A stretch of 64,000 nucleotides of DNA, from contig CAWBZL010000002.1 in assembly GCA_963793275.1 (NCBI GenBank), forward strand, positions 101,590 to 165,589. Direction: 5' to 3'. The notes beneath the pieces were generated by a model that did not search any database, was not told the origin of the DNA, and saw nothing but the letters and a program-made list of their open reading frames with translations. This document shows positions 38,809-49,001 of this stretch, piece by piece (within the stretch, counting starts at the first letter, position 1; every line of letters begins with the position of its first letter). The DNA is from an uncultured Flavobacteriaceae bacterium (GTDB lineage Bacteria; Bacteroidota; Bacteroidia; Flavobacteriales; Flavobacteriaceae). A program made the position numbers and the translations under genes.

Positions 38809-41268
38809 TTATTTCATCAATTTTAACGTCATTCGTTTAATTCTATCCTTCAATTTTTCTGAAGAAAGCTTTTCCCGTAACCTGTCGGTAATAATGGGGA
38901 AACTAAAAGGCGTGGCTTCTTCGCATTGTTTCCAAACTATTTCTTGGCTGGCAATTCGCTCCAATGCCAATCGTAGTCTGCCTTCTTCCATTTCGTGTTC
39001 AAAAGTTTCTCTAAATGCCTGTTGGTATAACAAATTATCTGCTTCGTAATCTCTAAACACATCAAACAGCAATTGCGAATTGCTTTGCAGGTGCTTGGTT
39101 TTTATTTGTTTGCTAGGATAGCCCGTAAAAACCAAACCACTTATTACAGCAATATCTCTGAATTTTCTGCGGGCCAATTCAGTACTATTTAAACTTTTTT
39201 GAAGGTCGCTAAAAAGATAGTCAGTGCTAAATAAATTATTGTCCACCACATTCTGAATATCCAAAGGCTGATCGCTCAACAATTCAAAGCCATAATCATT
39301 GTATGCAAGGGAAAAAGTGATGGGAGAAAGCAAACTAATTCTGTACGCCAATAATCCGCCCATTGCCATATGTACAAACCGCCCTTCAAATGGATAAAAT
39401 AAATGGTGATAGCCTTCTCTGGTTTTAAAGGTTTCTATTAAAAACTCATTATTTCCAGGAACAATACTTTCTTTTTCCTGTCTGTCAAAAATATCTGAAA
39501 GAGCTTTTAACTCAGGCGTGTTTCTCTTATGATCTGCTTCAGACTGCAGTTCGTTTCGTAAAATTTCAGACATCTGAGAAGAAAGTGCCATGCGCCCTCC
39601 CATAAAACTTACTACATTTCTTGTGCGCTTGCTACTGCGTCTTACCTGAGCGGCCATATTTCGAACCCTAACCAGTTCCAACGTTCTTCCCGCAAATACA
39701 AATACATCTCCGGGTTTCATTTTTCCTATAAAAAATTCTTCGATGGTACCTATAAATCCGCCACTCACGTATTTTACCTGCACCATTGCATCACTTACTA
39801 TAGTGCCAATAGACAGACGGTGCATCATAGCTGTTTGGCGGCTGTCCACGTAAAACCTCCCATCGTCGTCTACTAAAACGCGTTTATATTCGTCATAAGC
39901 CTGCAAGCTCTGGCTTCCTAGTGTGATAAAATTGAGGCACCATTGCCATTGTTCTTCAGTAATTCCCTGAAAACAAAAGGTGTTTTTAATTTCCGGATAT
40001 ATGTCTTTGGGATAAAAACCATCACTTACAGCAAGGGTTACTAAATACTGAATTAACACATCAAAACTTAACAAATACGGGATGCGGTCTTCCATTACTT
40101 CCCCTTTTACAGCTTTTTTTAGTGCCGAAGCTTCTATCAACTCCATAGCGTGTGTTGGCAAAAAATGAATTACTGATGGTTCTCCGGGTCTGTGATTGCT
40201 ACGCCCTGCCCGTTGTAAAAACTTAGCAATTCCTTTAGGCCCACCAATTTGAATAATAGTTTCTACAGGCGCAAAGTCTACTCCCAGATCCAAACTTGAG
40301 GTAGCCACCACAGCTTTTAAACTTTCGTTTCGTATCGCTTGTTCTACCCACAATCTGGTTTCCTTATTGATGCTTCCGTGATGCATCGCTAATTCGCCAG
40401 CAAACTCCGGATACTTCTCTAAGATTTTCTGAAACCAAATTTCGCATTGACCGCGGGTATTGGTAAAGATGAGTGTAGTTTTACTGGATTTTATAATAGG
40501 TATAATGTCGTCCAGCAAGTGCAATCCCAAATGCCCGCGCCAGGGAAAGGTTTCCATTTTTTTAGGAATAATAGATTTTACAACTATTTTTTTCTTGATG
40601 TTTGCTTTTAATAAAATCGAATTTTCGCGTAACGCTTCATTCATTCCCAGTAACACATCCTGCGCTTGTTCTAAATTTCCAATAGTTGCCGAAATTCCCC
40701 AAATACGAAGCTGAGGCGAGATGGTTTTAAGTCTGGATAAGCCAAGTTCCATCTGCACACCACGTTTGCTGCCAAGGAGCTCGTGCCATTCATCTACCAC
40801 TACAGCTGTAAGGTTTCCGAAGATCTTTTTATAGCCTTTACTTGCCAACAACAACATTAAACTTTCTGGAGTTGTAATGAGTAAATCGGGCATGTTCCGT
40901 TTTTGCTTTGCCCGCTCACTTTGCGCAGTATCACCGGTTCTTATTCCCACAGTTAAGCCTGTTTCCAGTTCGTCTGCAAAACGTTGTGCCGCTTGTTTAA
41001 TTTCTACCGAAAGTGCCCGCAGCGGAGTAATCCAGATTGCTTTTAAACCTTTTGTGTGTTTAGTTTTATATTCCGGATGGTCTTTTATATACTGCAATAC
41101 AATAGGAACCCAAAGTGCATAGGTTTTCCCGCTTCCCGTAGGAGCATTTAGAAGCCCGTGTTTTCCTTGTAAAAATGCCTTCCAGGTTTTTTTCTGAAAT
41201 GGGAATGCCTTCCAGTTTTTAGACTCGAACCAGGTTTCGGCTATTTCTATTAATTGGGATTGATTCAT
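38809..41268 (-). CDS. lhr: ligase-associated DNA damage response DEXH-box helicase (Lhr-like)
   Basis: 819 aa with Walker A APTGSGKT, a DEWH box, helicase C motifs and a long C-terminal Lhr extension. Confidence 0.8.
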   Translation of the reverse strand: MNQSQLIEIAETWFESKNWKAFPFQKKTWKAFLQGKHGLLNAPTGSGKTYALWVPIVLQYIKDHPEYKTKHTKGLKAIWITPLRALSVEIKQAAQRFADELETGLTVGIRTGDTAQSERAKQKRNMPDLLITTPESLMLLLASKGYKKIFGNLTAVVVDEWHELLGSKRGVQMELGLSRLKTISPQLRIWGISATIGNLEQAQDVLLGMNEALRENSILLKANIKKKIVVKSIIPKKMETFPWRGHLGLHLLDDIIPIIKSSKTTLIFTNTRGQCEIWFQKILEKYPEFAGELAMHHGSINKETRLWVEQAIRNESLKAVVATSSLDLGVDFAPVETIIQIGGPKGIAKFLQRAGRSNHRPGEPSVIHFLPTHAMELIEASALKKAVKGEVMEDRIPYLLSFDVLIQYLVTLAVSDGFYPKDIYPEIKNTFCFQGITEEQWQWCLNFITLGSQSLQAYDEYKRVLVDDDGRFYVDSRQTAMMHRLSIGTIVSDAMVQVKYVSGGFIGTIEEFFIGKMKPGDVFVFAGRTLELVRVRNMAAQVRRSSKRTRNVVSFMGGRMALSSQMSEILRNELQSEADHKRNTPELKALSDIFDRQEKESIVPGNNEFLIETFKTREGYHHLFYPFEGRFVHMAMGGLLAYRISLLSPITFSLAYNDYGFELLSDQPLDIQNVVDNNLFSTDYLFSDLQKSLNSTELARRKFRDIAVISGLVFTGYPSKQIKTKHLQSNSQLLFDVFRDYEADNLLYQQAFRETFEHEMEEGRLRLALERIASQEIVWKQCEEATPFSFPIITDRLREKLSSEKLKDRIKRMTLKLMK

Positions 41269-41269
41269 G

Positions 41270-42919
41270 TTACTTAGGAATCAAAGCTCTCAGATCGTCC
41301 AGGGTATTTGCTTCTTCTATAGGTTTGTCTTTTCTCCATCGCAATATTCTTGGAAACCTGGTGGCAATACCGCTTTTATGTCGTTTACTTTCAGCAATGC
41401 CCTCAAAAGCTATTTCAAAAACGTGATGTGGTGTAACGCTTCTTACACGACCAAAGCGTTCCAGGGTGTTCTTTTTTATCCAGGCATCTACTTGTCTGAA
41501 TTCGGCATCTGTGAGACCCGAATATGCTTTTGCAAAAGTTACCAGTTCTCCTTCATCCCAAAGACCAAAGGTATAATCTGTATATAAATTTGCGCGCCTT
41601 CCGTGACCACGCATGGCGTAGGTGAGCACACCGTCTATGGTGAATGGGTCGGTTTTCCATTTCCACCAATCGCCTTTTTTTCGGCCAACTAAATAAGGAG
41701 AATCTTTGCGTTTCAGCATTAAACCTTCACTGCGTTTTTCTCGCGATAATTTTCTTTCGGCTGCGGCATCTTCCCAGGTTTTAAACGTCATTGTTTCGCT
41801 TAGATACAAGCCTATTTCGTCACAACTACATTCTGAAATTAAAGTGTCCAGAATTTCTCTTCTTTCTGAAAAGGGCTTTTGCCGGATATCTTTTCCTTTC
41901 CACTCCAATAGATCGTAAGCATTCAAAATCACCGGTGTTTTCTCCAGTAATTTTTTTGAAATATTCTTTCTGCCAATACGAGTTTGAAGGTCGTTAAAAT
42001 TTCCAATTTCATTATTTCCGAAGGGTAAAATTTCACCATCCAAAACGGTACCGTTAGGAATTTTTGAAAGGAAGCGTTGAAATTCAGGGTATTTATCGGT
42101 AACTAGTTCTTCGCCTCTGGACCAGACAAACACTTCGTCATTTCTGATAATTACCTGGCTCCTGATACCATCCCATTTATGTTCAAAACTCCAGCCTTTA
42201 ATATCGCCCAGATCTTCCTGAAAATTATCTTCTACAGCATACGCCAGATAAAACGGATAGGGTTTACTGAGGTAATCTTCCGGGTTTTCTTCTAAAATTA
42301 AATCCTGAAACGTGGTTGTATCTGCAGTCCAGTTACCCATTAGTTTATAGGCAAGTATGTCTTCATCTATTCCCGTAGATTTTGAGAGTGATCGGGTCAT
42401 TAATTTTTGACTCACCCCAATTCTAAAACCACCCGTAATAATTTTATTGAACACAAAACGCTCAAAATAGCTCATTCTCAACCAGTTTTCCTGAAGATAG
42501 CTTCTTTTTTCATCTTCTTCGAGTGTACGTAGCGTAATGATTTCGTTACAGTATTGAGACAGCGATTTTTCCCGAATTCCCAGCGCCTCTCCCGCTGAGA
42601 GGGGAATATTCTTTTCTTCCTTTTTTAGGGAGTGTTTAGGTGCGCTTGGAATTATTAAGGCAATAGTTTCGGCCAGATCACCCACTATATGATAGCTTTC
42701 TTCAAATAACCACTGTGGGATGCCACTAATTTCGGTTGCCCATAACCTTAGAAGTGTTGTGTTTACAGGGCGTTTTGGTCTTCTGTGTGAGAGTATGGCA
42801 ATGGTCCATAGTTTATCATCTTCACCCGCATTGTTAAAATATTCGGTGAGTGCAGCCACTTTCAAGGTGGTTTTATTGGTACTATCCAGAGTTTTTATGA
42901 GGGCAGCAAAATGTTTCAT
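41270..42919 (-). CDS. ATP-dependent DNA ligase (ligase-associated DNA damage response ligase)
   Basis: 549 aa with adenylation motif I EHKWDGIR and OB-fold region. There is a 4-bp overlap with the upstream exonuclease gene. Confidence 0.8.
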   Translation of the reverse strand: MKHFAALIKTLDSTNKTTLKVAALTEYFNNAGEDDKLWTIAILSHRRPKRPVNTTLLRLWATEISGIPQWLFEESYHIVGDLAETIALIIPSAPKHSLKKEEKNIPLSAGEALGIREKSLSQYCNEIITLRTLEEDEKRSYLQENWLRMSYFERFVFNKIITGGFRIGVSQKLMTRSLSKSTGIDEDILAYKLMGNWTADTTTFQDLILEENPEDYLSKPYPFYLAYAVEDNFQEDLGDIKGWSFEHKWDGIRSQVIIRNDEVFVWSRGEELVTDKYPEFQRFLSKIPNGTVLDGEILPFGNNEIGNFNDLQTRIGRKNISKKLLEKTPVILNAYDLLEWKGKDIRQKPFSERREILDTLISECSCDEIGLYLSETMTFKTWEDAAAERKLSREKRSEGLMLKRKDSPYLVGRKKGDWWKWKTDPFTIDGVLTYAMRGHGRRANLYTDYTFGLWDEGELVTFAKAYSGLTDAEFRQVDAWIKKNTLERFGRVRSVTPHHVFEIAFEGIAESKRHKSGIATRFPRILRWRKDKPIEEANTLDDLRALIPK

Positions 42920-44016
42920 ACCGTATCGTCCTCCTCTTTTTTATTCACTTCGCTTCCTTCTTCTTCATATTGTGTTTTTTCGGTGCGTGCATCCAGGCCC
43001 ATTTCTTCACGCAGATATCTAGAGAAAATCTCGGTATAGCCGTGGGTGGCGATAACTTTTTCAGCACCTGTGTCTTTTACAGTTTGTAGCAATCCGTCCC
43101 AATCTGCGTGATCGCTTAGTACAAATCCGCGGTCTATGGCACGGCGCCTTCTTGCCCCTCTGAACGTCATCCATCCGCTCGCGCTGGCGGTTACATACGG
43201 TACCATCTTTCTGATCCAGGTTCCTCCGTGTGCACTGGGCGGGGCAAGTACTATATTGCCTAACAATTCTTCTTTTTTGGTCTCACGGGTAATGCGTGTA
43301 GTTTCGTGAAAGTTATAATTTTCTCTAAGCACTGCTGTCATATTTTCTATGGCACCGTGGGTGTAAATTTTGCCAATATCCGGATCCAGATGTTTCAGCA
43401 AACGTTGTGCTTTTCCCAGACTGTAGCCAAAAAGGATAGACGTTTTATTTTCTGCTCTGTTGGTGGCCCACCAGTTATTTATGTCTTTAAAAACTTCGGC
43501 CTGTGGGGTCCATTTAAATGCCGGGAGACCAAAGGTACATTCGGTAATAAAGGTGTTGCATTTTACCAGTTCAAAAGGTTCGGCAATGCCGTCATTTTCG
43601 GTTTTAAAATCGCCTGTAAAGACCCAGACTTCTCCTTTATACATTGCTCTTACCTGGCTACTTGCAACAATATGCCCAGCGGGATGAAGACTAAAGGTGA
43701 CTCCGTTTATGGTAAAAGTTTCTCCCCATTTCTTACCGCTTACGGTTATTTCTCCCAGGCGGTGCTTAATAATGGGTACATTTTTATGATGGGTAATGTA
43801 TTGTTTGTGTCCCCACCGACTGTGGTCTGCGTGGCCGTGGGTGATGATGCACTTATCTACAGGACGCCAGGCGTCTATATAAACATCTGCCTGCTTGCAG
43901 TAGATGCCTTTGTCGTTAAATTGAAGGAGTGGTGTTTTAGGCAATTTTTCAGAATTTTCTCGATAATTGAAGTTTGCATGGTCCGAGGTTTGCCTCGAAT
44001 TTAAATTTTTCGCCAT
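42916..44016 (-). CDS. ligase-associated DNA damage response exonuclease (MBL-fold/beta-CASP)
   Basis: 366 aa with metallo-beta-lactamase motif HGHADH and beta-CASP-like C-terminal region. It is the first gene of the operon. Confidence 0.75.
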   Translation of the reverse strand: MAKNLNSRQTSDHANFNYRENSEKLPKTPLLQFNDKGIYCKQADVYIDAWRPVDKCIITHGHADHSRWGHKQYITHHKNVPIIKHRLGEITVSGKKWGETFTINGVTFSLHPAGHIVASSQVRAMYKGEVWVFTGDFKTENDGIAEPFELVKCNTFITECTFGLPAFKWTPQAEVFKDINNWWATNRAENKTSILFGYSLGKAQRLLKHLDPDIGKIYTHGAIENMTAVLRENYNFHETTRITRETKKEELLGNIVLAPPSAHGGTWIRKMVPYVTASASGWMTFRGARRRRAIDRGFVLSDHADWDGLLQTVKDTGAEKVIATHGYTEIFSRYLREEMGLDARTEKTQYEEEGSEVNKKEEDDTV

Positions 44017-44653: not shown

Positions 44654-46153
44654 TTAAAAGAGCTTTTCGATACTGTCGAAGAGCTCTTTTTGCGTATAGG
44701 GTTTTGGTAAAAAAGCCGAAGCTCCCGAAGCCATCATTTGCTCTTGTTTCTGCAACATAGTGCTTCCACTGGCAACTAAAATAGGAATGTGTTGTATGTT
44801 GGAATCCTGCTTGCACTTTCTTATAAAGGCTATACCAGAGCTGTCTGCCAATGCTCCCTTACTAACAATAAGGTTGTAATTTCTTTTTCTCAACAATTCA
44901 AACGCCTGGTTTGCATCCTGCGCTATTTCTAAAATAATTCCTTTCTCATTGTTAAGGAAGGTTCGCATGAAGAGCATTTGGTTGGTTTCAATTTCTTCAA
45001 TAACCAGAATACGCTTGCTCATTAAAATTCCAGAACCTTTTGGCACTGTAGACCTTTTTTCTTTCCTTTTTCTCTCTTTAAAGGGTAGTAAGCAGGAAAA
45101 AGTAGTGCCGTCTTTATTGCTTGTAACCGAAATTTTCCCATCCAATACTGTCACTAGGTCTTTTACAATTTTAAGGCCTAAACCTTCACCAATGGGCTTA
45201 ATTGCATCCTCCTTTAACTGATAATAAGAATCGAAAACACGGTCAATTTCCGAAGTTGGGATTCCCTTTCCGGAGTCTGAAACTGAAATAGCAAGCATAC
45301 AATTTTCAGCACTGTTTTCTTTCAAAGTAACTCCTAATAGTATGGAGCCATGTGTTGTGTTTCTGAAGGCGTTTTCTAATAAATTAAATAGTATTTGATT
45401 TAACCGAAAAGGATCACCAATTAATTTTTTTGGAACTGTTTTTTCAATACTTGCTTCCAGCAAAATATTTTTTTTGCTGAACTTTAATTTATAATGTTGT
45501 TCCAGATTAGTTATAATGTGACCTAAATTAAAGGGAACCTGTTGCTTGGTAATAATTCCCCGCTCAATTTTTGAGATATCCAGCATATCGTCCATGAGTT
45601 GCTTTATTTGCAACCCGGTACGCTCCATTACCTTAAGTGTTTCGTTTTGATCGTAGGAAAGTTTTGTTTTTCTTAGCAACTCCATAAAACCCAGTAGGTT
45701 GTTTAACGGATTTCGGATTTCGTGATTAATATTCGCCAAAAAATTATTTTTGAAATTCTCTTTCGCCAGCAATAACTTCTTGTCAAAAGTTAATCTGTTT
45801 TTTGCAATAGCGGCTTCGTTTTTCTGCTGTACCAGTGGGTGTGCATCCCTGTAATGCGTTGTAAAGTCGAATAACAGCAAATAAATAGTATCCTCTCGTC
45901 GTACAATACTTATGTCTAAAATCTTACTAAAACCATCGCCGGAAAGATTTACACAGGGATAGGTAACATCTTGTGAAACTTCGGGAATTATGTTGATAAT
46001 GGTTTCAAAAAAAGGATGAAAACTAGTGATGTTTTCATTTTCAGTAAAAGGAAACAATACATCATCACTTTCAATCACGGCACCTTCTTTGGTTATTTCA
46101 ATTTGCTGAATCCTTGTGTTGAGAAACTCTTCTTTTAAGAGGGCAGTATTCAT
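44654..46153 (-). CDS. hybrid sensor histidine kinase/response regulator with uncharacterised N-terminal sensor domain
   Basis: 499 aa with N-terminal ~150-aa domain X, a DHp H-box (NINHEIRNPLNNLLGF), HATPase_c N/G boxes and a C-terminal REC domain with a conserved Asp context. Confidence 0.8.
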   Translation of the reverse strand: MNTALLKEEFLNTRIQQIEITKEGAVIESDDVLFPFTENENITSFHPFFETIINIIPEVSQDVTYPCVNLSGDGFSKILDISIVRREDTIYLLLFDFTTHYRDAHPLVQQKNEAAIAKNRLTFDKKLLLAKENFKNNFLANINHEIRNPLNNLLGFMELLRKTKLSYDQNETLKVMERTGLQIKQLMDDMLDISKIERGIITKQQVPFNLGHIITNLEQHYKLKFSKKNILLEASIEKTVPKKLIGDPFRLNQILFNLLENAFRNTTHGSILLGVTLKENSAENCMLAISVSDSGKGIPTSEIDRVFDSYYQLKEDAIKPIGEGLGLKIVKDLVTVLDGKISVTSNKDGTTFSCLLPFKERKRKEKRSTVPKGSGILMSKRILVIEEIETNQMLFMRTFLNNEKGIILEIAQDANQAFELLRKRNYNLIVSKGALADSSGIAFIRKCKQDSNIQHIPILVASGSTMLQKQEQMMASGASAFLPKPYTQKELFDSIEKLF

Positions 46154-46155
46154 AA

Positions 46156-46680
46156 TTACAATGTTTGTGAAGCTATTTCCCGAAAAGTCTCGGCTACATT
46201 TTCCCCTGTTTTGGCACTGGTAAAAAAGCAGTTGCTAAAATGATTTTCTTTAAAAAAATCTTTAGTAAACTCTTCTGAAAAAAGATCGGCTTTGTTTCCC
46301 ACAAAACACACTGGAATGGTTGGATATTTTGTAGACAGAAAAGCCATCTCTTCGGCAATGTTTTCGTAGGTTTCCGGGTGGGTAATGTCGAACACATACA
46401 TAAAGCCGTGGGTGCCCAATAAATAACTTTCTCTGGCTTTTGCTATGGAGGTATTTCCCTCGATATCCCAGATTATTAAGTTTATTTGTGTTGTATCCAG
46501 CGTTACTGTTTTTTTCTTTACGTGTACACCAACCGTTACCAGATAATCTTCGCTAAAAGCGCTCTCCACGAATTGGCGCACTAAACTGGTTTTTCCCACT
46601 CCAAAATGGCCAAGAATTACAATTTTTTTTGAATGGGTCATGGTTGGGTTTTTTATGCACGCAAATATATCCGAAAACAA
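46156..46680 (-). CDS. Ras-like small GTPase (MglA/Rab-like), copy B
   Basis: G1 GHFGVGKTS, switch-I Thr, G3 WDIEG, G4 GNKADL and G5 SAK. The start is probably the internal Met preceding THSKKIVILG. A 2-bp gap separates it from the downstream HK. Confidence 0.7.
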   Translation of the reverse strand: MFSDIFACIKNPTMTHSKKIVILGHFGVGKTSLVRQFVESAFSEDYLVTVGVHVKKKTVTLDTTQINLIIWDIEGNTSIAKARESYLLGTHGFMYVFDITHPETYENIAEEMAFLSTKYPTIPVCFVGNKADLFSEEFTKDFFKENHFSNCFFTSAKTGENVAETFREIASQTL

Positions 46681-46737: not shown

Positions 46738-47340
46738 CTAAGCATCGAAGTCAAAGTCCAATTCTTCTCGTATCTGGATTGCTTTAAGGTGAAAATTACC
46801 TATACTTTTTTCAATATCCTGTATAAGTTGCCGTTGCTCTGGTGCTATTTCACCTTGTTTTAGTTGCTCCACTTTTGAGATAATGTATTCCAGGGCGCCT
46901 ATCACTTTATCGTCAATACGCTCTCTCATAAAGCCTAAATAGGCCTGTTTTTCTTCTAAATGCTTTCTTCTTAAATTGTGTTCCTGTTCCTGTAATAGTG
47001 CTGTCTTTTTTTCCTGAGCCGCCTCGTGTAAATGTTCGTAATGCTGAGAATAGTCAAAAAGTAAAATGGCCAGAAAATCCGGTTCTTTTTTAATAGTAAT
47101 ATCACATATAGCTTCTTTACCGTGAATGTTTAGTTGTACACAAGGGAAAGCCAAGCTACTGCCAAAGATCTCTCTACTTTGCAATTCGATCTGTAAACTC
47201 TCAAAAAATGGATGAATTTCATATAAATTATCCTTCTTATTTAATAAAAAAATGGTGTCGCTACTTTCAAAAATCTCGCCCGTGGGTTTGGCGTGGATTT
47301 CCTGAATCTTCTTCGAAAAAAATAAATTCTGGTTTGTCAT
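46738..47340 (-). CDS. stand-alone paralogue of the HK N-terminal sensor domain with degenerate DHp-like C-terminus (His replaced by Arg)
   Basis: 200 aa. Residues ~10-110 align with HK residues ~15-115 (shared HPFFE, PCV-L, LLFD-x3-HY). The C-terminus YLGFMRERIDDKV aligns with the HK H-box but lacks the His, and there is no ATPase domain. Confidence 0.55.
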   Translation of the reverse strand: MTNQNLFFSKKIQEIHAKPTGEIFESSDTIFLLNKKDNLYEIHPFFESLQIELQSREIFGSSLAFPCVQLNIHGKEAICDITIKKEPDFLAILLFDYSQHYEHLHEAAQEKKTALLQEQEHNLRRKHLEEKQAYLGFMRERIDDKVIGALEYIISKVEQLKQGEIAPEQRQLIQDIEKSIGNFHLKAIQIREELDFDFDA

Positions 47341-47828
47341 TTTGTTAGTTTTTTTGCTAAGTCTGTAAATACTTCTTGCACGCCCTCTCCCGTTTTGGCA
47401 CTTACAAAGCTGTCTGCTTCTATGTCTTTTTTAAGGAGGTAGTCTATGACGTGTTTGGGGTTTTCTAAGTCACTTTTGTTACCAATTAATTTTAAACTTA
47501 CATGCTCGTATTTTTCTGAAATAAAAGCAATTTCTTTTTCAAGGTTCTCGTACGTAACGGGTCTGGTAATATCAAAAACATATATAAATCCTTCTGAGCC
47601 TAGTAGGTAGGATGGTCGTGCTTTGTCAATAGAAGAAAATCCTTCAAGGTCCCAGATTATCATAGATATTTGTTTTCCATTTGGCAGGTCCAAGACCTTT
47701 TTCTTTATCTGTACGCCCAGTGTGGTTTTATAGTCGTGTTCAAAAACATCTTCCAGCAGCCTTCGCATTAACGAAGTTTTTCCAACCCCAAACTGCCCCA
47801 TGAGCACTATTTTCTTTGAAAGATTCAT
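47337..47828 (-). CDS. Ras-like small GTPase (MglA/Rab-like), copy A
   Basis: 163 aa with G1 GQFGVGKTS, G3 WDLEG, G4 GNKSDL and G5 SAK. There are 4-bp overlaps with both flanking genes. Confidence 0.7.
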   Translation of the reverse strand: MNLSKKIVLMGQFGVGKTSLMRRLLEDVFEHDYKTTLGVQIKKKVLDLPNGKQISMIIWDLEGFSSIDKARPSYLLGSEGFIYVFDITRPVTYENLEKEIAFISEKYEHVSLKLIGNKSDLENPKHVIDYLLKKDIEADSFVSAKTGEGVQEVFTDLAKKLTK

Positions 47829-48637
47829 TTGTTAAAGAATTTTTTCAAAAACAAATCGGTTTCTTCTCTGGAAAGATGCGAAACACCAGAGGACATTTTT
47901 TTTGAAAGTTTAAATAATTTATTTTCTAATTGGCTCTCAAAAGAGCGCGTGTAATTTCCTGAAACTACCACAGCAATATAAAAACTATGGAAGTTCTGAA
48001 TATGAATGGTGTACAACTCATATTCAATATTTTCTAAATTTTGAGTACCCCCTTTAAAAGCATCTTCAACAAAACTCTTTATAGCAGTTAGCATCCCGGA
48101 AATCATGTCTTTATCTACCGTTTCGGTTTTACTGTGATTCCCTAAGAGAATGCCAGATCCCTTTTGGATGAGAAATACCTCGCTAATTACAGGCGGATTC
48201 GTTTCTGTAAGTATAAGATCGCTTTCCTTAACACCCGTAAATCGTGCACGTACTTTTCGCTTTAAACTTATAAGAGAGAACGTATTGTTCACCTTTTTGT
48301 TTACTGTTTCGGAGAGTACTTTTATTTCATTTTGTACGTAGCGTTTAATCATTTTACCCATAATTGGGTATAGCGCTTCTACCACGGCATCCCGAGAATT
48401 TGCGATTTCAGTCTTTAATGTTTTTGTTATTGTTGGTCCTAATGTTACGGGTATTTCGGCTATAAATTCATTCAGTTTTTCCTGAATGATGGGATCTATT
48501 TTTTCTGAAAGTTTAGCACGTTGCTCAATTGTTTGGGTAATTACATCGAGGCGTTGGTTTACAGCACTGGCAATTTCCCTGTCGTCTACCAACAGGATAT
48601 CACGTAGCAGCTGCAATTTATCCTCTTCTTTCACCAT
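47825..48637 (-). CDS. Roadblock/LC7 (MglB-like) domain protein with ~150-aa N-terminal extension
   Basis: 270 aa. The C-terminal ~110 aa (VFLIQKGSGILLGNH...DMISGMLTAIKSF...YIAVVVSGNY) matches the Roadblock/LC7 pattern of GTPase-regulating MglB proteins. Confidence 0.6.
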   Translation of the reverse strand: MVKEEDKLQLLRDILLVDDREIASAVNQRLDVITQTIEQRAKLSEKIDPIIQEKLNEFIAEIPVTLGPTITKTLKTEIANSRDAVVEALYPIMGKMIKRYVQNEIKVLSETVNKKVNNTFSLISLKRKVRARFTGVKESDLILTETNPPVISEVFLIQKGSGILLGNHSKTETVDKDMISGMLTAIKSFVEDAFKGGTQNLENIEYELYTIHIQNFHSFYIAVVVSGNYTRSFESQLENKLFKLSKKMSSGVSHLSREETDLFLKKFFNK

Positions 48638-48650
48638 GTGCTAACACTTT

Positions 48651-49001
48651 TTATGAACTAATCTTCTCCCCCAGATTAATTAGTAGTTTCCCCAGTTGTT
48701 TACGATCTACTTTGCTCTCGGCTAATGCTTCGGTTTTTGAGGTCATTGCATCTTCCAGGTCTGTAATTCTAATATTTACGTCTGTACTTAACGAATCTAT
48801 AGATTGCATTAACTCATTTCTTACTTCATCTATATAATTTTCAAGATGTGCTTTTTGAGTATCTACTGCTTGTTTGAGGGTGTTAAACTCGCTATCTATT
48901 TTTTCAATATTCTCCCCAAAAATGAGGTTTTTGATAGCTTCAATTTTCGAATTGGAATCTAAAGAAGGTGGAGCTTCTAAGGGTGGGTTTTTTTTTGCCA
49001 T
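48651..49001 (-). CDS. hypothetical coiled-coil protein, first gene of the GTPase operon
   Basis: 116 aa with heptad-repeat helical sequence, 13 bp upstream of the Roadblock gene. Confidence 0.45.
   Translation of the reverse strand: MAKKNPPLEAPPSLDSNSKIEAIKNLIFGENIEKIDSEFNTLKQAVDTQKAHLENYIDEVRNELMQSIDSLSTDVNIRITDLEDAMTSKTEALAESKVDRKQLGKLLINLGEKISS

What the first reader, a model, noticed from the sequence alone, without database searches (positions are those of the whole stretch)
46738..47340. Kinase-dead paralogue: sensor domain duplicated, phospho-acceptor His replaced by Arg, ATPase domain lost
The 200-aa protein aligns along its first ~110 residues with the N-terminal sensor of the adjacent hybrid HK (shared HPFFE-x...-PCVxL-x...-LLFDxxxHY blocks). 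Its C-terminus (YLGFMRERIDDKVIGALEYI...LIQDIEKSIGNFHLKAIQIREELDFD) aligns with the HK DHp region (FLANINHEIRNPLNNLLGF...), but the phosphorylatable His is Arg and there is no CA domain. Each copy is preceded by its own GTPase, so [GTPase + X] looks like a duplicated module. The truncated copy could heterodimerise with the kinase through the DHp-like helices, acting as a pseudo-kinase regulator, or titrate GTPase B.
Basis: seen in the sequence. Interest (0 to 1): 0.7.

Follow-up and report, generated by a model that had tools for sequence, protein, structure and literature searches.

The report
Kinase-dead sensor copy beside Ras-like GTPase
A marine flavobacterium duplicated a "Ras-like GTPase + sensor kinase" gene pair, and one kinase copy was cut down to a conserved 200-residue protein that keeps the GTPase-associated sensor domain and a dimerisation hairpin but can no longer phosphorylate anything, so it most likely signals by protein contact alone.

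Summary
The 200-aa protein X (46738-47340, minus strand) is a paralogue of the first ~190 residues of the adjacent hybrid histidine kinase (BLASTP E 2e-22; hhalign 99.9%). The N-terminal domain match is solid. The DHp match is marginal on its own (hhalign 51.7%) but lies in the same ungapped register. The phospho-His aligns with Asp144, not Arg, and that column varies across 80 family members. The CA and REC domains are absent.

The operon is the "Group 1 Rup GTPase" system described only bioinformatically (Wuichet & Søgaard-Andersen 2014): coiled-coil protein, unknown protein, Gln-less Ras-like GTPase, and an output protein whose N-domain carries an invariant Gln. X keeps that Gln (Q13) and every other N-domain invariant. 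Outgroups have one GTPase and one kinase; only the Marinirhabdus/Aureisphaera/Ulvibacter clade has the extra GTPase+X pair. Both halves of X are under strong purifying selection.

Similar DHp-only, His-less outputs arose independently in other Rup operons, in one as the last gene of the operon, with no kinase gene in the 5 kb downstream.

Best reading: X is the phosphorylation-independent effector and/or GAP partner of GTPase A. Heterodimerisation with the kinase remains untested. This is a new variant of a known, uncharacterised kind.

The parts
48651..49001 (-). 116-aa coiled-coil protein, first gene of the Rup operon
   Evidence: Only weak coiled-coil-type Pfam matches. It is conserved in all 33 related loci, directly upstream of P270. 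It matches the 'coiled-coil cytoplasmic protein' of Group 1 Rup neighbourhoods (PMC4316618).
47825..48637 (-). P270: 270-aa protein with long N-terminal helices and a C-terminal Roadblock/longin-like domain (about residues 138-250)
   Evidence: No Pfam or NCBIfam hit. It has 1440 homologues, named 'cell envelope biogenesis protein OmpA' by NCBI although no OmpA domain is present. The AF2 C-terminal domain has pLDDT 60-82 and topology a-b-b-a-b-b-b-a. All top Foldseek hits are Roadblock/longin domains: RagA/C CTD at E 2e-4, Sec22b, LAMTOR, Mon1-Ccz1, MglB. Its stop overlaps the GTPase A start (ATGA).
47337..47828 (-). GTPase A: 163-aa Ras-superfamily (Rup Group 1-type) small GTPase, the cognate partner of X
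   Evidence: Pfam Ras E 1e-28. G1, G4 and G5 are intact. G3 is WDLEGF, so there is no catalytic Gln. It forms a monophyletic GTPase A clade. Its stop overlaps the X start.
46738..47340 (-). X: the 200-aa kinase-dead paralogue (the finding)
   Evidence: There are 83 homologues, nearly all 192-202 aa, all hypothetical. dS is saturated with dN 0.10-0.30.
47050..47340 (-). X residues 1-97: PAS-fold 'Rup-output N-domain' with invariant Q13 (codon 47302-47304), H43-P-F-F-E47, C67, D80, H100-Y101
46762..47049 (-). X residues 98-193: signalling helix plus a degenerate DHp-like helical hairpin. The H-box is replaced by 'R141-I-D-x-K145'. Asp144 (codon 46909-46911) sits at the phospho-His position.
   Evidence: AF2 predicts helices 98-161 and 167-193 at pLDDT ~85. 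Foldseek best hits are PAS/LOV-DHp kinases, 4gcz at E 3e-5. hhalign on this part alone gives 51.7%, E 1.5e-4, in register, with invariant Q169 shared. Column 144 is variable.
46156..46641 (-). GTPase B: Ras-superfamily small GTPase, paralogue of GTPase A and partner of the kinase. Its probable true start is the ATG at 46641 (161 aa); the ORF lister starts at the TTG at 46680.
   Evidence: Pfam Ras E 4e-33. It is 51% identical to GTPase A. Orthologues align from residue 14. G3 is WDIEGN. A 96-nt spacer separates it from the X stop.
44654..46153 (-). Hybrid histidine kinase, 499 aa: Rup-output N-domain (1-~120, Q16) + HisKA (His144, codon 45722-45724) + HATPase_c + receiver domain whose phospho-acceptor Asp is Lys432 (codon 44858-44860)
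   Evidence: Pfam HisKA 4e-18, HATPase_c 4e-22, Response_reg 2e-13. H144 and the N, G1 and G2 boxes are invariant. The REC Asp is Lys in all clade members and Asp in all outgroups.

Best explanation
X is a conserved, kinase-dead offshoot of the histidine kinase that serves as the output protein of a 'Group 1 Rup' small-GTPase signalling operon.

Origin. An ancestor of the Marinirhabdus/Aureisphaera/Ulvibacter clade duplicated the [Rup GTPase + kinase] pair. The upstream kinase copy lost its H-box, ATPase domain and receiver domain. It kept two parts: the PAS-fold N-domain that defines Rup output proteins, with its invariant Gln13, and a two-helix DHp-derived hairpin.

Proposed mechanism. X is the cognate partner of the GTPase encoded immediately upstream (GTPase A).
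1. Its N-domain binds GTPase A. It reads the nucleotide state and possibly accelerates GTP hydrolysis by supplying the Gln that the GTPase lacks.
2. Its hairpin makes X a dimer.
3. The signal is passed on by protein-protein contact rather than phosphotransfer, giving the operon a second G-protein input or timer branch.

Shown: homology, domain loss, duplication, purifying selection, retention of N-domain invariants, gene coupling to GTPase A.
Inferred: GTPase binding or GAP action, dimerisation, and the identity of the downstream contact.
For: Homology and loss:
- BLASTP E 2e-22; hhalign 99.86%.
- No HisKA, HATPase_c or REC hit.
- The His column is variable in 80 members.

Fold:
- AF2 pLDDT 84, PAS-like domain plus helical hairpin.
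- Foldseek hits to PAS-DHp kinases.

System identity:
- Operon composition and the invariant N-terminal Gln match the Group 1 Rup neighbourhood (PMC4316618).
- All 52 GTPases examined lack the G3 Gln.
- Q13 of X and Q16 of the HK are invariant.

Duplication: outgroup loci have one GTPase and one HK, and the clade has two GTPases plus X.

Functional constraint:
- dS is saturated while dN is 0.10-0.30 in both halves.
- The X N-domain is more conserved than the kinase's own N-domain in the same genomes: 66.5% versus 50.2% mean pairwise identity, higher in 151 of 153 pairs.

Pairing with GTPase A:
- ATGA start/stop overlap.
- GTPase A and X are frameshifted together in L020 while P270, GTPase B and the HK are intact.

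Kinase-independent function is plausible:
- Independent short N-domain + DHp-only proteins lacking the His follow Rup GTPases in other operons (P0149, P0195).
- In L035 the short protein is the last gene of the operon, and no kinase gene lies in the ~5 kb downstream.
- The N-domain is also fused to LytTR, and there are full-length His-less kinases in the family.
Against: - No Rup system has been studied experimentally, so GTPase binding and GAP action of the N-domain are hypotheses taken from comparative genomics.
- The X hairpin is only marginally recognisable as DHp by sequence (51.7% alone).
- Polar residues in the hairpin are conserved (R141, D143, K145, E151, Q169, Q189). This points to a specific partner surface that I cannot identify, and it could be the kinase.
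- The NJ trees do not resolve which copy is ancestral. The GTPase tree groups GTPase B with a different outgroup set than GTPase A, so acquiring one pair by recombination rather than in-situ duplication is not excluded.
- L020 is a MAG, so its frameshifts could be assembly errors.
Confidence: 0.55

Rival explanations
1. Pseudo-kinase inhibitor or modulator. X forms a mixed four-helix bundle with the DHp of the adjacent hybrid kinase, as RetS does with GacS. GTPase A would then gate the kinase that GTPase B also controls.
For: - X retains a full-length DHp-like hairpin that ends exactly where the kinase alpha2 ends.
- Conserved polar residues replace the H-box.
- X and the kinase share an operon in about 20 genomes.
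- There is precedent for DHp heterodimers and CA-less pseudokinases: RetS-GacS (review PMC12189002) and ChrS_CA-fs/HrrS (PMC9491836).
- The kinase in the same clade lost its receiver Asp, which suggests the whole output was rewired.
Against: - The hairpin is only 10-19% identical to the kinase DHp and evolves faster than it (47.8% versus 71.0%).
- Paralogous kinases usually evolve to avoid heterodimerisation (established knowledge, not tested here).
- An analogous short protein ends its operon in L035, with no kinase gene in the ~5 kb downstream.
- No structural or interaction test was possible with these tools.
Confidence: 0.22
2. Decoy for GTPase B. X competes with the kinase N-domain for GTPase B and so damps kinase activation.
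For: The N-domains of X and the kinase are homologous and share all invariant residues. The two GTPases are 51% identical.
Against: - X is translationally coupled to GTPase A, not GTPase B.
- GTPase A and X decay together in L020.
- The GTPase A and B clades carry distinct fixed G3 residues, F versus N.
- The X and kinase N-domains are only about 32-36% identical. Together these fit two insulated pairs.
Confidence: 0.08
3. Phosphotransfer protein, Spo0B- or Hpt-like. X accepts a phosphoryl group from the kinase, whose own receiver is dead, on another His and relays it.
For: - The kinase receiver lacks the acceptor Asp, so an alternative acceptor is needed.
- X has a four-helix-bundle-type hairpin.
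- His184 is present in 81% of members, and H121 and H127 in about 70%.
Against: - No His in the helical region is invariant.
- The canonical position is variable.
- The acidic residue next to the His, the Arg and the Pro of the H-box are all lost.
Confidence: 0.04
4. Non-functional remnant of a truncated kinase gene.
For: The C-terminal domains are lost and the H-box is degenerate. GTPase A and X are broken in one MAG, and X is replaced by a 116-aa version in another genome.
Against: - There are 83 homologues, nearly all 192-202 aa, down to 43% identity.
- dS is saturated with dN 0.1-0.3 in both halves.
- The N-domain is more conserved than in the active kinase.
- There is a precise start/stop overlap with GTPase A.
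Confidence: 0.02

Closest known systems
Group 1 Rup small-GTPase systems (Wuichet & Søgaard-Andersen 2014, Genome Biol Evol 7:57, PMC4316618)
   Same: - The gene set matches: coiled-coil protein, unknown-domain protein, a Ras-superfamily GTPase lacking the G3 catalytic Gln, and an output protein whose N-terminal region carries an invariant Gln.
- Bacteroidetes are among the listed taxa.
- The adjacent kinase is a textbook member.
   Different: - The described outputs are histidine kinases or GGDEF/EAL proteins. X has no enzymatic output, only a degenerate DHp hairpin.
- The operon here holds two GTPases and two N-domain proteins.
- P270 lacks the TM helix and OmpA domain often seen.
- The N-domain is shown here to have a PAS fold and P270 a Roadblock/longin-like domain, both left as 'unknown' in the paper.
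- No member of these systems has been studied experimentally.
Histidine-kinase pseudokinases and DHp heterodimer regulators: RetS-GacS of Pseudomonas aeruginosa, CA-frameshifted ChrS of Corynebacterium glutamicum (PMC9491836), DivL of Caulobacter (PMC4211667)
   Same: These are kinase-derived proteins that have lost catalysis or the phospho-acceptor and act through protein-protein contacts. ChrS_CA-fs is also a CA-less truncation that heterodimerises with a paralogous kinase.
   Different: - Those proteins keep most kinase domains or the His. X has lost the H-box, CA and REC altogether.
- X is paired with a dedicated Ras-like GTPase.
- No interaction data exist for X.
Actinobacterial conservons (CvnA-D) and MglA/MglB modules
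   Same: A small Ras-like GTPase is encoded with a histidine kinase and a Roadblock-fold protein, and the operon has no response regulator.
   Different: - The GTPases here are Ras/Rup-type, not MglA-type.
- No DUF742 (CvnC) homologue was found.
- The kinase is cytoplasmic with a PAS-fold N-domain, not TM-HAMP.
- The resemblance is in architecture only.
PAS-DHp sensor kinases such as YF1 (4gcz) and FixL
   Different: X shows no sequence match to Pfam PAS or HisKA models, and it has no His and no CA domain.

Membership tests
HisKA-type sensor histidine kinase | Phospho-acceptor His in an H-box (H-E-[IL]-R-x-P) on DHp helix 1 | tested here: not met
   In the hhalign and BLASTP register, His144 of the kinase aligns with Asp144 of X. 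The column is T/N/S/A/G/D/V/R in 80 members, and the E, R and P of the H-box are also lost.
HisKA-type sensor histidine kinase | Catalytic ATP-binding (HATPase_c) domain | tested here: not met
   X ends at residue 200, right after the second hairpin helix. It has no HATPase_c hit in Pfam at E<=1 or in NCBIfam.
HisKA-type sensor histidine kinase | DHp two-helix dimerisation hairpin | tested here: inconclusive
Group 1 Rup system output protein (PMC4316618) | Encoded next to a Rup-type small GTPase that lacks the catalytic Gln in G3 | tested here: met
   X overlaps the stop of GTPase A. G3 is WDLEGF in 20 of 20 GTPase A orthologues, and no Gln follows DxxG in any of 52 GTPases. The GTPases were not placed in the published Rup tree.
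Group 1 Rup system output protein (PMC4316618) | N-terminal region with an invariant glutamine | tested here: met
   Q13 is present in 80 of 80 X members. It aligns with the invariant Q16 of the kinases and with Q in 68 of 71 wider family representatives.
Group 1 Rup system output protein (PMC4316618) | Operon also encodes a coiled-coil protein and a second conserved protein of unknown function | tested here: met
   CC116 and P270 lie upstream in the window and in all complete related loci.
Group 1 Rup system output protein (PMC4316618) | C-terminal enzymatic output module (histidine kinase or GGDEF/EAL) | tested here: not met
   Only a degenerate hairpin remains.
PAS domain | Five-stranded antiparallel sheet with flanking helices (PAS fold) | tested here: met
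Actinobacterial conservon (CvnA-D) | MglA-type GTPase + MglB-type Roadblock protein + DUF742 protein + TM-HAMP kinase with an LPxR tail | tested here: not met
   The GTPases match Ras/Roc/Arf models. No DUF742 hit was found. The kinase has no TM or HAMP. Only the C-terminal domain of P270 resembles Roadblock/longin, in a moderate-confidence model.
Spo0B/Hpt-like phosphotransferase | Invariant phosphorylatable His on a helix of a four-helix bundle | tested here: not met
   No invariant His is found in residues 120-200. The best is H184 at 81%.

The most novel reading that the evidence does not exclude
Two paralogous Ras-like GTPases converge on one kinase. GTPase B acts through the kinase's own N-domain. 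GTPase A acts through X, which inserts its DHp-like hairpin into, or docks onto, the kinase dimer. That would make a G-protein-gated kinase/pseudokinase heterocomplex, a two-input logic gate. The simultaneous loss of the receiver Asp in the kinase would mean the whole module has moved to a non-canonical output. More broadly, Rup systems may signal largely without phosphotransfer. This fits the recurrent His-less, Asp-less and DHp-only outputs seen in the family.
Probability: 0.15. Interest if true: 0.75.

Novelty: new variant of a known kind. Interest (0 to 1): 0.5.

Why it matters
Bacterial Ras-like GTPases outside MglA are almost unstudied. The Rup family has been described only by comparative genomics, and how these GTPases talk to their output proteins is unknown.

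X is a natural minimal output: just the GTPase-associated PAS-fold domain plus a dimerisation hairpin, under strong selection, next to its own GTPase. That makes it a convenient handle for three questions:
- Does the N-domain bind the GTPase?
- Does its invariant Gln act as a GAP residue supplied in trans?
- Can the system signal without phosphorylation?

The recurrent, independent loss of the His, the receiver Asp or the whole catalytic core in this family suggests that phosphotransfer is often dispensable for the output of these systems.

Tried and rejected
- Pfam and NCBIfam scans of X gave nothing usable. The only Pfam entry was DUF5667 at E 0.21, which is noise.
- Sequence-profile searches of PDB with the X family, the N-domain and P270 found no relatives.
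- The word-indexed protein search with a mixed N-domain alignment (A3) returned almost only X-family members. The exhaustive HMM search was needed to see the wider family.
- The promoter and terminator scan was at background level and uninformative. This is expected, because Bacteroidota promoters are not sigma-70 type.
- dN/dS ratios could not be computed, because dS was saturated for every available pair. Only the qualitative conclusion, dN far below dS, is used.
- The NJ trees of the GTPases and N-domains did not resolve which copy is ancestral, or whether the second pair arose in situ.
- The afdb50 structure library was not available.
- Literature searches found no experimental work on Rup systems or on Ras-like GTPases in flavobacteria.
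It needs a 3- or 5-residue shift in a helix that both alignment methods leave ungapped.
- I considered a possible one-residue-offset match between X 'HLKAIQIxExLD' and the kinase alpha2 'HLKxLxDDxLD' and left it as unproven.

Full report
WHAT IS THERE

On the minus strand lies a compact six-gene operon:
- a 116-aa coiled-coil protein (49001-48651);
- a 270-aa protein, P270 (48637-47825);
- a 163-aa Ras-family GTPase, 'GTPase A' (47828-47337);
- the 200-aa protein X of the finding (47340-46738);
- a second Ras-family GTPase, 'GTPase B' (46680/46641-46156);
- a 499-aa hybrid histidine kinase (46153-44654) with HisKA, HATPase_c and Response_reg domains from residue 135 onwards and an unannotated N-terminal ~125 residues.

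The P270/GTPase A and GTPase A/X junctions are ATGA start/stop overlaps. A 96-nt spacer precedes the probable true start of GTPase B.

CHECK OF THE OBSERVATION

X aligns with residues 10-188 of the kinase: BLASTP E 2e-22, 25% identity. A profile of 20 X-family members against a profile of 25 kinases gives hhalign probability 99.86%, E 2e-31, over 180 columns, ungapped after residue ~62. The two GTPases are 51% identical, E 2e-58. So the duplicated-module observation is correct.

Two qualifications apply.

First, the signal is mostly in the N-domain. It is 32-36% identical and scores hhalign 99.9% alone. Residues 119-195 are only 10-19% identical to the kinase DHp. Tested alone, the C-terminal 75 residues still find the DHp in exactly the same register: 51.7%, E 1.5e-4, against 0.16% for a reversed control. 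Both families have an invariant Gln at position 169 within a shared 'L(K/R)xTxLxxEQ' turn motif.

Second, in this register the phospho-acceptor His144 aligns with Asp144 of X, not with an Arg. In 80 full-length family members that column is T/N/S/A/G/D/V/R. The neighbouring E, R and P of the H-box are also gone, replaced by a conserved 'R141-I-D-x-K145'.

X ends just after the second hairpin helix, so the CA and receiver domains are absent.

STRUCTURE

WHAT SYSTEM THIS IS

The operon matches the 'Group 1 Rup' neighbourhood defined by comparative genomics (Wuichet & Søgaard-Andersen 2014, PMC4316618). That neighbourhood has four parts:
- a Ras-superfamily GTPase lacking the catalytic Gln of G3;
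- a coiled-coil protein;
- a second protein of unknown function;
- an output protein (kinase or GGDEF/EAL) whose N-terminal region has an invariant Gln, which the authors speculated is supplied in trans as a GAP residue.

Here all 52 GTPases examined have intact G1, G4 and G5 motifs but no Gln after DxxG. GTPase A has WDLEGF and GTPase B has WDIEGN. The kinases have an invariant Q16. X has Q13 in 80 of 80 members, together with every other N-domain invariant: H43-P-F-F-E, C67, D80, H100-Y101. No experimental work on these systems was found.

EVOLUTION

Thirty-three genomic loci were retrieved and annotated by BLAST against the window proteins.

Twelve outgroup loci have coiled-coil - P270 - one GTPase - kinase. 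They come from other Flavobacteriaceae, Maribacter, Oceanihabitans and Cyclobacteriaceae. Four of them lie in the same FBPase/TerB genomic context as the window.

The Marinirhabdus/Rasiella/Aureisphaera/Ulvibacter/Cochleicola clade has GTPase A - X - GTPase B - kinase. GTPase A, GTPase B and X each form a clade, so the pair arose once at or before the base of this group. The NJ trees cannot tell which copy is ancestral.

X is a live gene:
- It has 83 homologues, nearly all 192-202 aa, down to 43% identity.
- Synonymous sites are saturated while dN is 0.10-0.30 in both halves.
- In the same genomes the X N-domain is more conserved than the kinase's own N-domain (66.5% versus 50.2%).
- Its hairpin is less conserved than the kinase DHp (47.8% versus 71.0%).

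The module is dynamic:
- One Ulvibacter MAG has both GTPase A and X broken by several frameshifts, while P270, GTPase B and the kinase are intact.
- Aureitalea sp. L0-47 lacks GTPase A and carries only a 116-aa N-domain-only version (a second such protein is P0085).
- Ulvibacter antarcticus has X plus a 127-aa N-domain-only ORF.

THE WIDER FAMILY

An exhaustive HMM search with the N-domain found 372 cluster representatives, always with the domain at the extreme N-terminus. The architectures seen include:
- HisKA-HATPase-REC (~500 aa);
- the same plus Hpt (~640 aa);
- kinase only;
- LytTR DNA-binding fusions (~250 aa);
- short DHp-only proteins.

Two short DHp-only proteins are unrelated to the X clade. 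P0195 (212 aa) has the His replaced by Asn. P0149 (195 aa) has Tyr at the His position. Both have sub-threshold HisKA hits (E ~2e-4), and both sit directly after a Rup GTPase. In locus L035 the short protein is the last gene of the operon, and no kinase gene lies in the ~5 kb that follows.

Among 71 full-length kinases of the family, 6 lack the His, some with degenerate N and G boxes, and 18 lack the receiver Asp. Loss of phosphorelay residues is thus recurrent in Rup outputs. X is the extreme end of that trend.

MECHANISM

Most likely, X is the cognate, phosphorylation-independent partner of GTPase A. Its N-domain would bind the GTPase as effector and/or as the Gln-donating GAP. Its hairpin would dimerise it. 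The output would be a protein contact.

Shown: homology, domain losses, selection, gene coupling.
Inferred: the binding and GAP steps.

It is favoured by the conserved polar surface that replaces the H-box and by the co-occurring Asp-to-Lys change in the kinase receiver. It is disfavoured by the hairpin's divergence and by the L035 operon, which ends with the short protein. Titration of GTPase B, a phosphotransfer role and a decaying remnant are all unlikely, for the reasons given under the rival explanations.

CONTEXT NOTED

The C-terminal domain of P270 is predicted (moderate confidence) to adopt a Roadblock/longin fold. Every top Foldseek hit is a small-GTPase regulator platform: Rag CTD, LAMTOR, Mon1-Ccz1, MglB. 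This gives the operon the same kinase + Roadblock + GTPase logic as actinobacterial conservons, without being a member of that family.

VERDICT

This is a genuine, conserved, kinase-dead paralogue and a new variant within a known but uncharacterised kind of system. It is of moderate interest, mainly as a minimal experimental handle on Rup GTPase signalling.

Noticed in passing
window 44654-46153 (-), codon 44858-44860 (Lys432): The receiver domain of the adjacent hybrid kinase is a pseudo-receiver. The phospho-acceptor Asp ('YDLILMD' in all 10 outgroup kinases in the alignment) is Lys ('YNLIVSK'). The same holds in all 15 kinases in the alignment from the clade that carries the GTPase+X duplication. 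His144 and the N, G1 and G2 boxes stay invariant. In the wider family, 18 of 71 representatives lack this Asp.
   Followed up: partly
window 47825-48637 (-): P270, the 'unknown-function' partner of Rup systems, is named 'cell envelope biogenesis protein OmpA' by NCBI. Its C-terminal domain is predicted to have a Roadblock/longin-like fold. Foldseek hits are exclusively small-GTPase regulator platforms: Rag CTD, LAMTOR, Mon1-Ccz1, MglB. Model confidence is only moderate, and the N-terminal helices have pLDDT below 50.
   Followed up: partly
L035:178-1265 and L034:1474-3001: Independent short (195 and 212 aa) N-domain + DHp-only proteins lacking the phospho-His (Tyr and Asn at that position) follow Rup GTPases in unrelated metagenomic contigs. 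In L035 the short protein ends the operon, and no kinase gene lies in the ~5 kb downstream.
   Followed up: partly
L020:6528-7594: In an Ulvibacter MAG, both GTPase A and X are split by several frameshifts while the flanking P270, GTPase B and kinase genes are intact. This is either joint pseudogenisation of the pair or local assembly error.
   Followed up: no
L021:7001-7351; L015:7743-8126; protein P0085: N-domain-only proteins of 116-127 aa form a sister group to X. In Aureitalea sp. L0-47 the 116-aa version replaces GTPase A + X. In Ulvibacter antarcticus a 127-aa copy sits between X and GTPase B.
   Followed up: partly
proteins P0222, P0231, P0228: The Rup-output N-domain is also fused directly to a LytTR DNA-binding domain (~250 aa). 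This would be a one-component transcription factor, presumably under GTPase control, an output type not listed in the 2014 description.
   Followed up: no
X residues H43, C67, D80, H100 (window 47340-47041, -) and the same positions in the kinase: The PAS-fold N-domain has an invariant or near-invariant His/Cys/Asp/His set shared by X and all the kinases. This could be a metal or cofactor site rather than a purely structural core. Their spatial proximity could not be checked.
   Followed up: no
window 38809-44016 (-): Just downstream of the TerB-like gene is a three-gene set that, judged from its translations, looks like a ligase-associated DNA-damage-response cluster: an 819-aa DEAH/Lhr-like helicase, a 549-aa ATP-dependent DNA ligase and a 366-aa metallo-beta-lactamase-fold exonuclease. 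This is read from the sequences only and was not tested.
   Followed up: no
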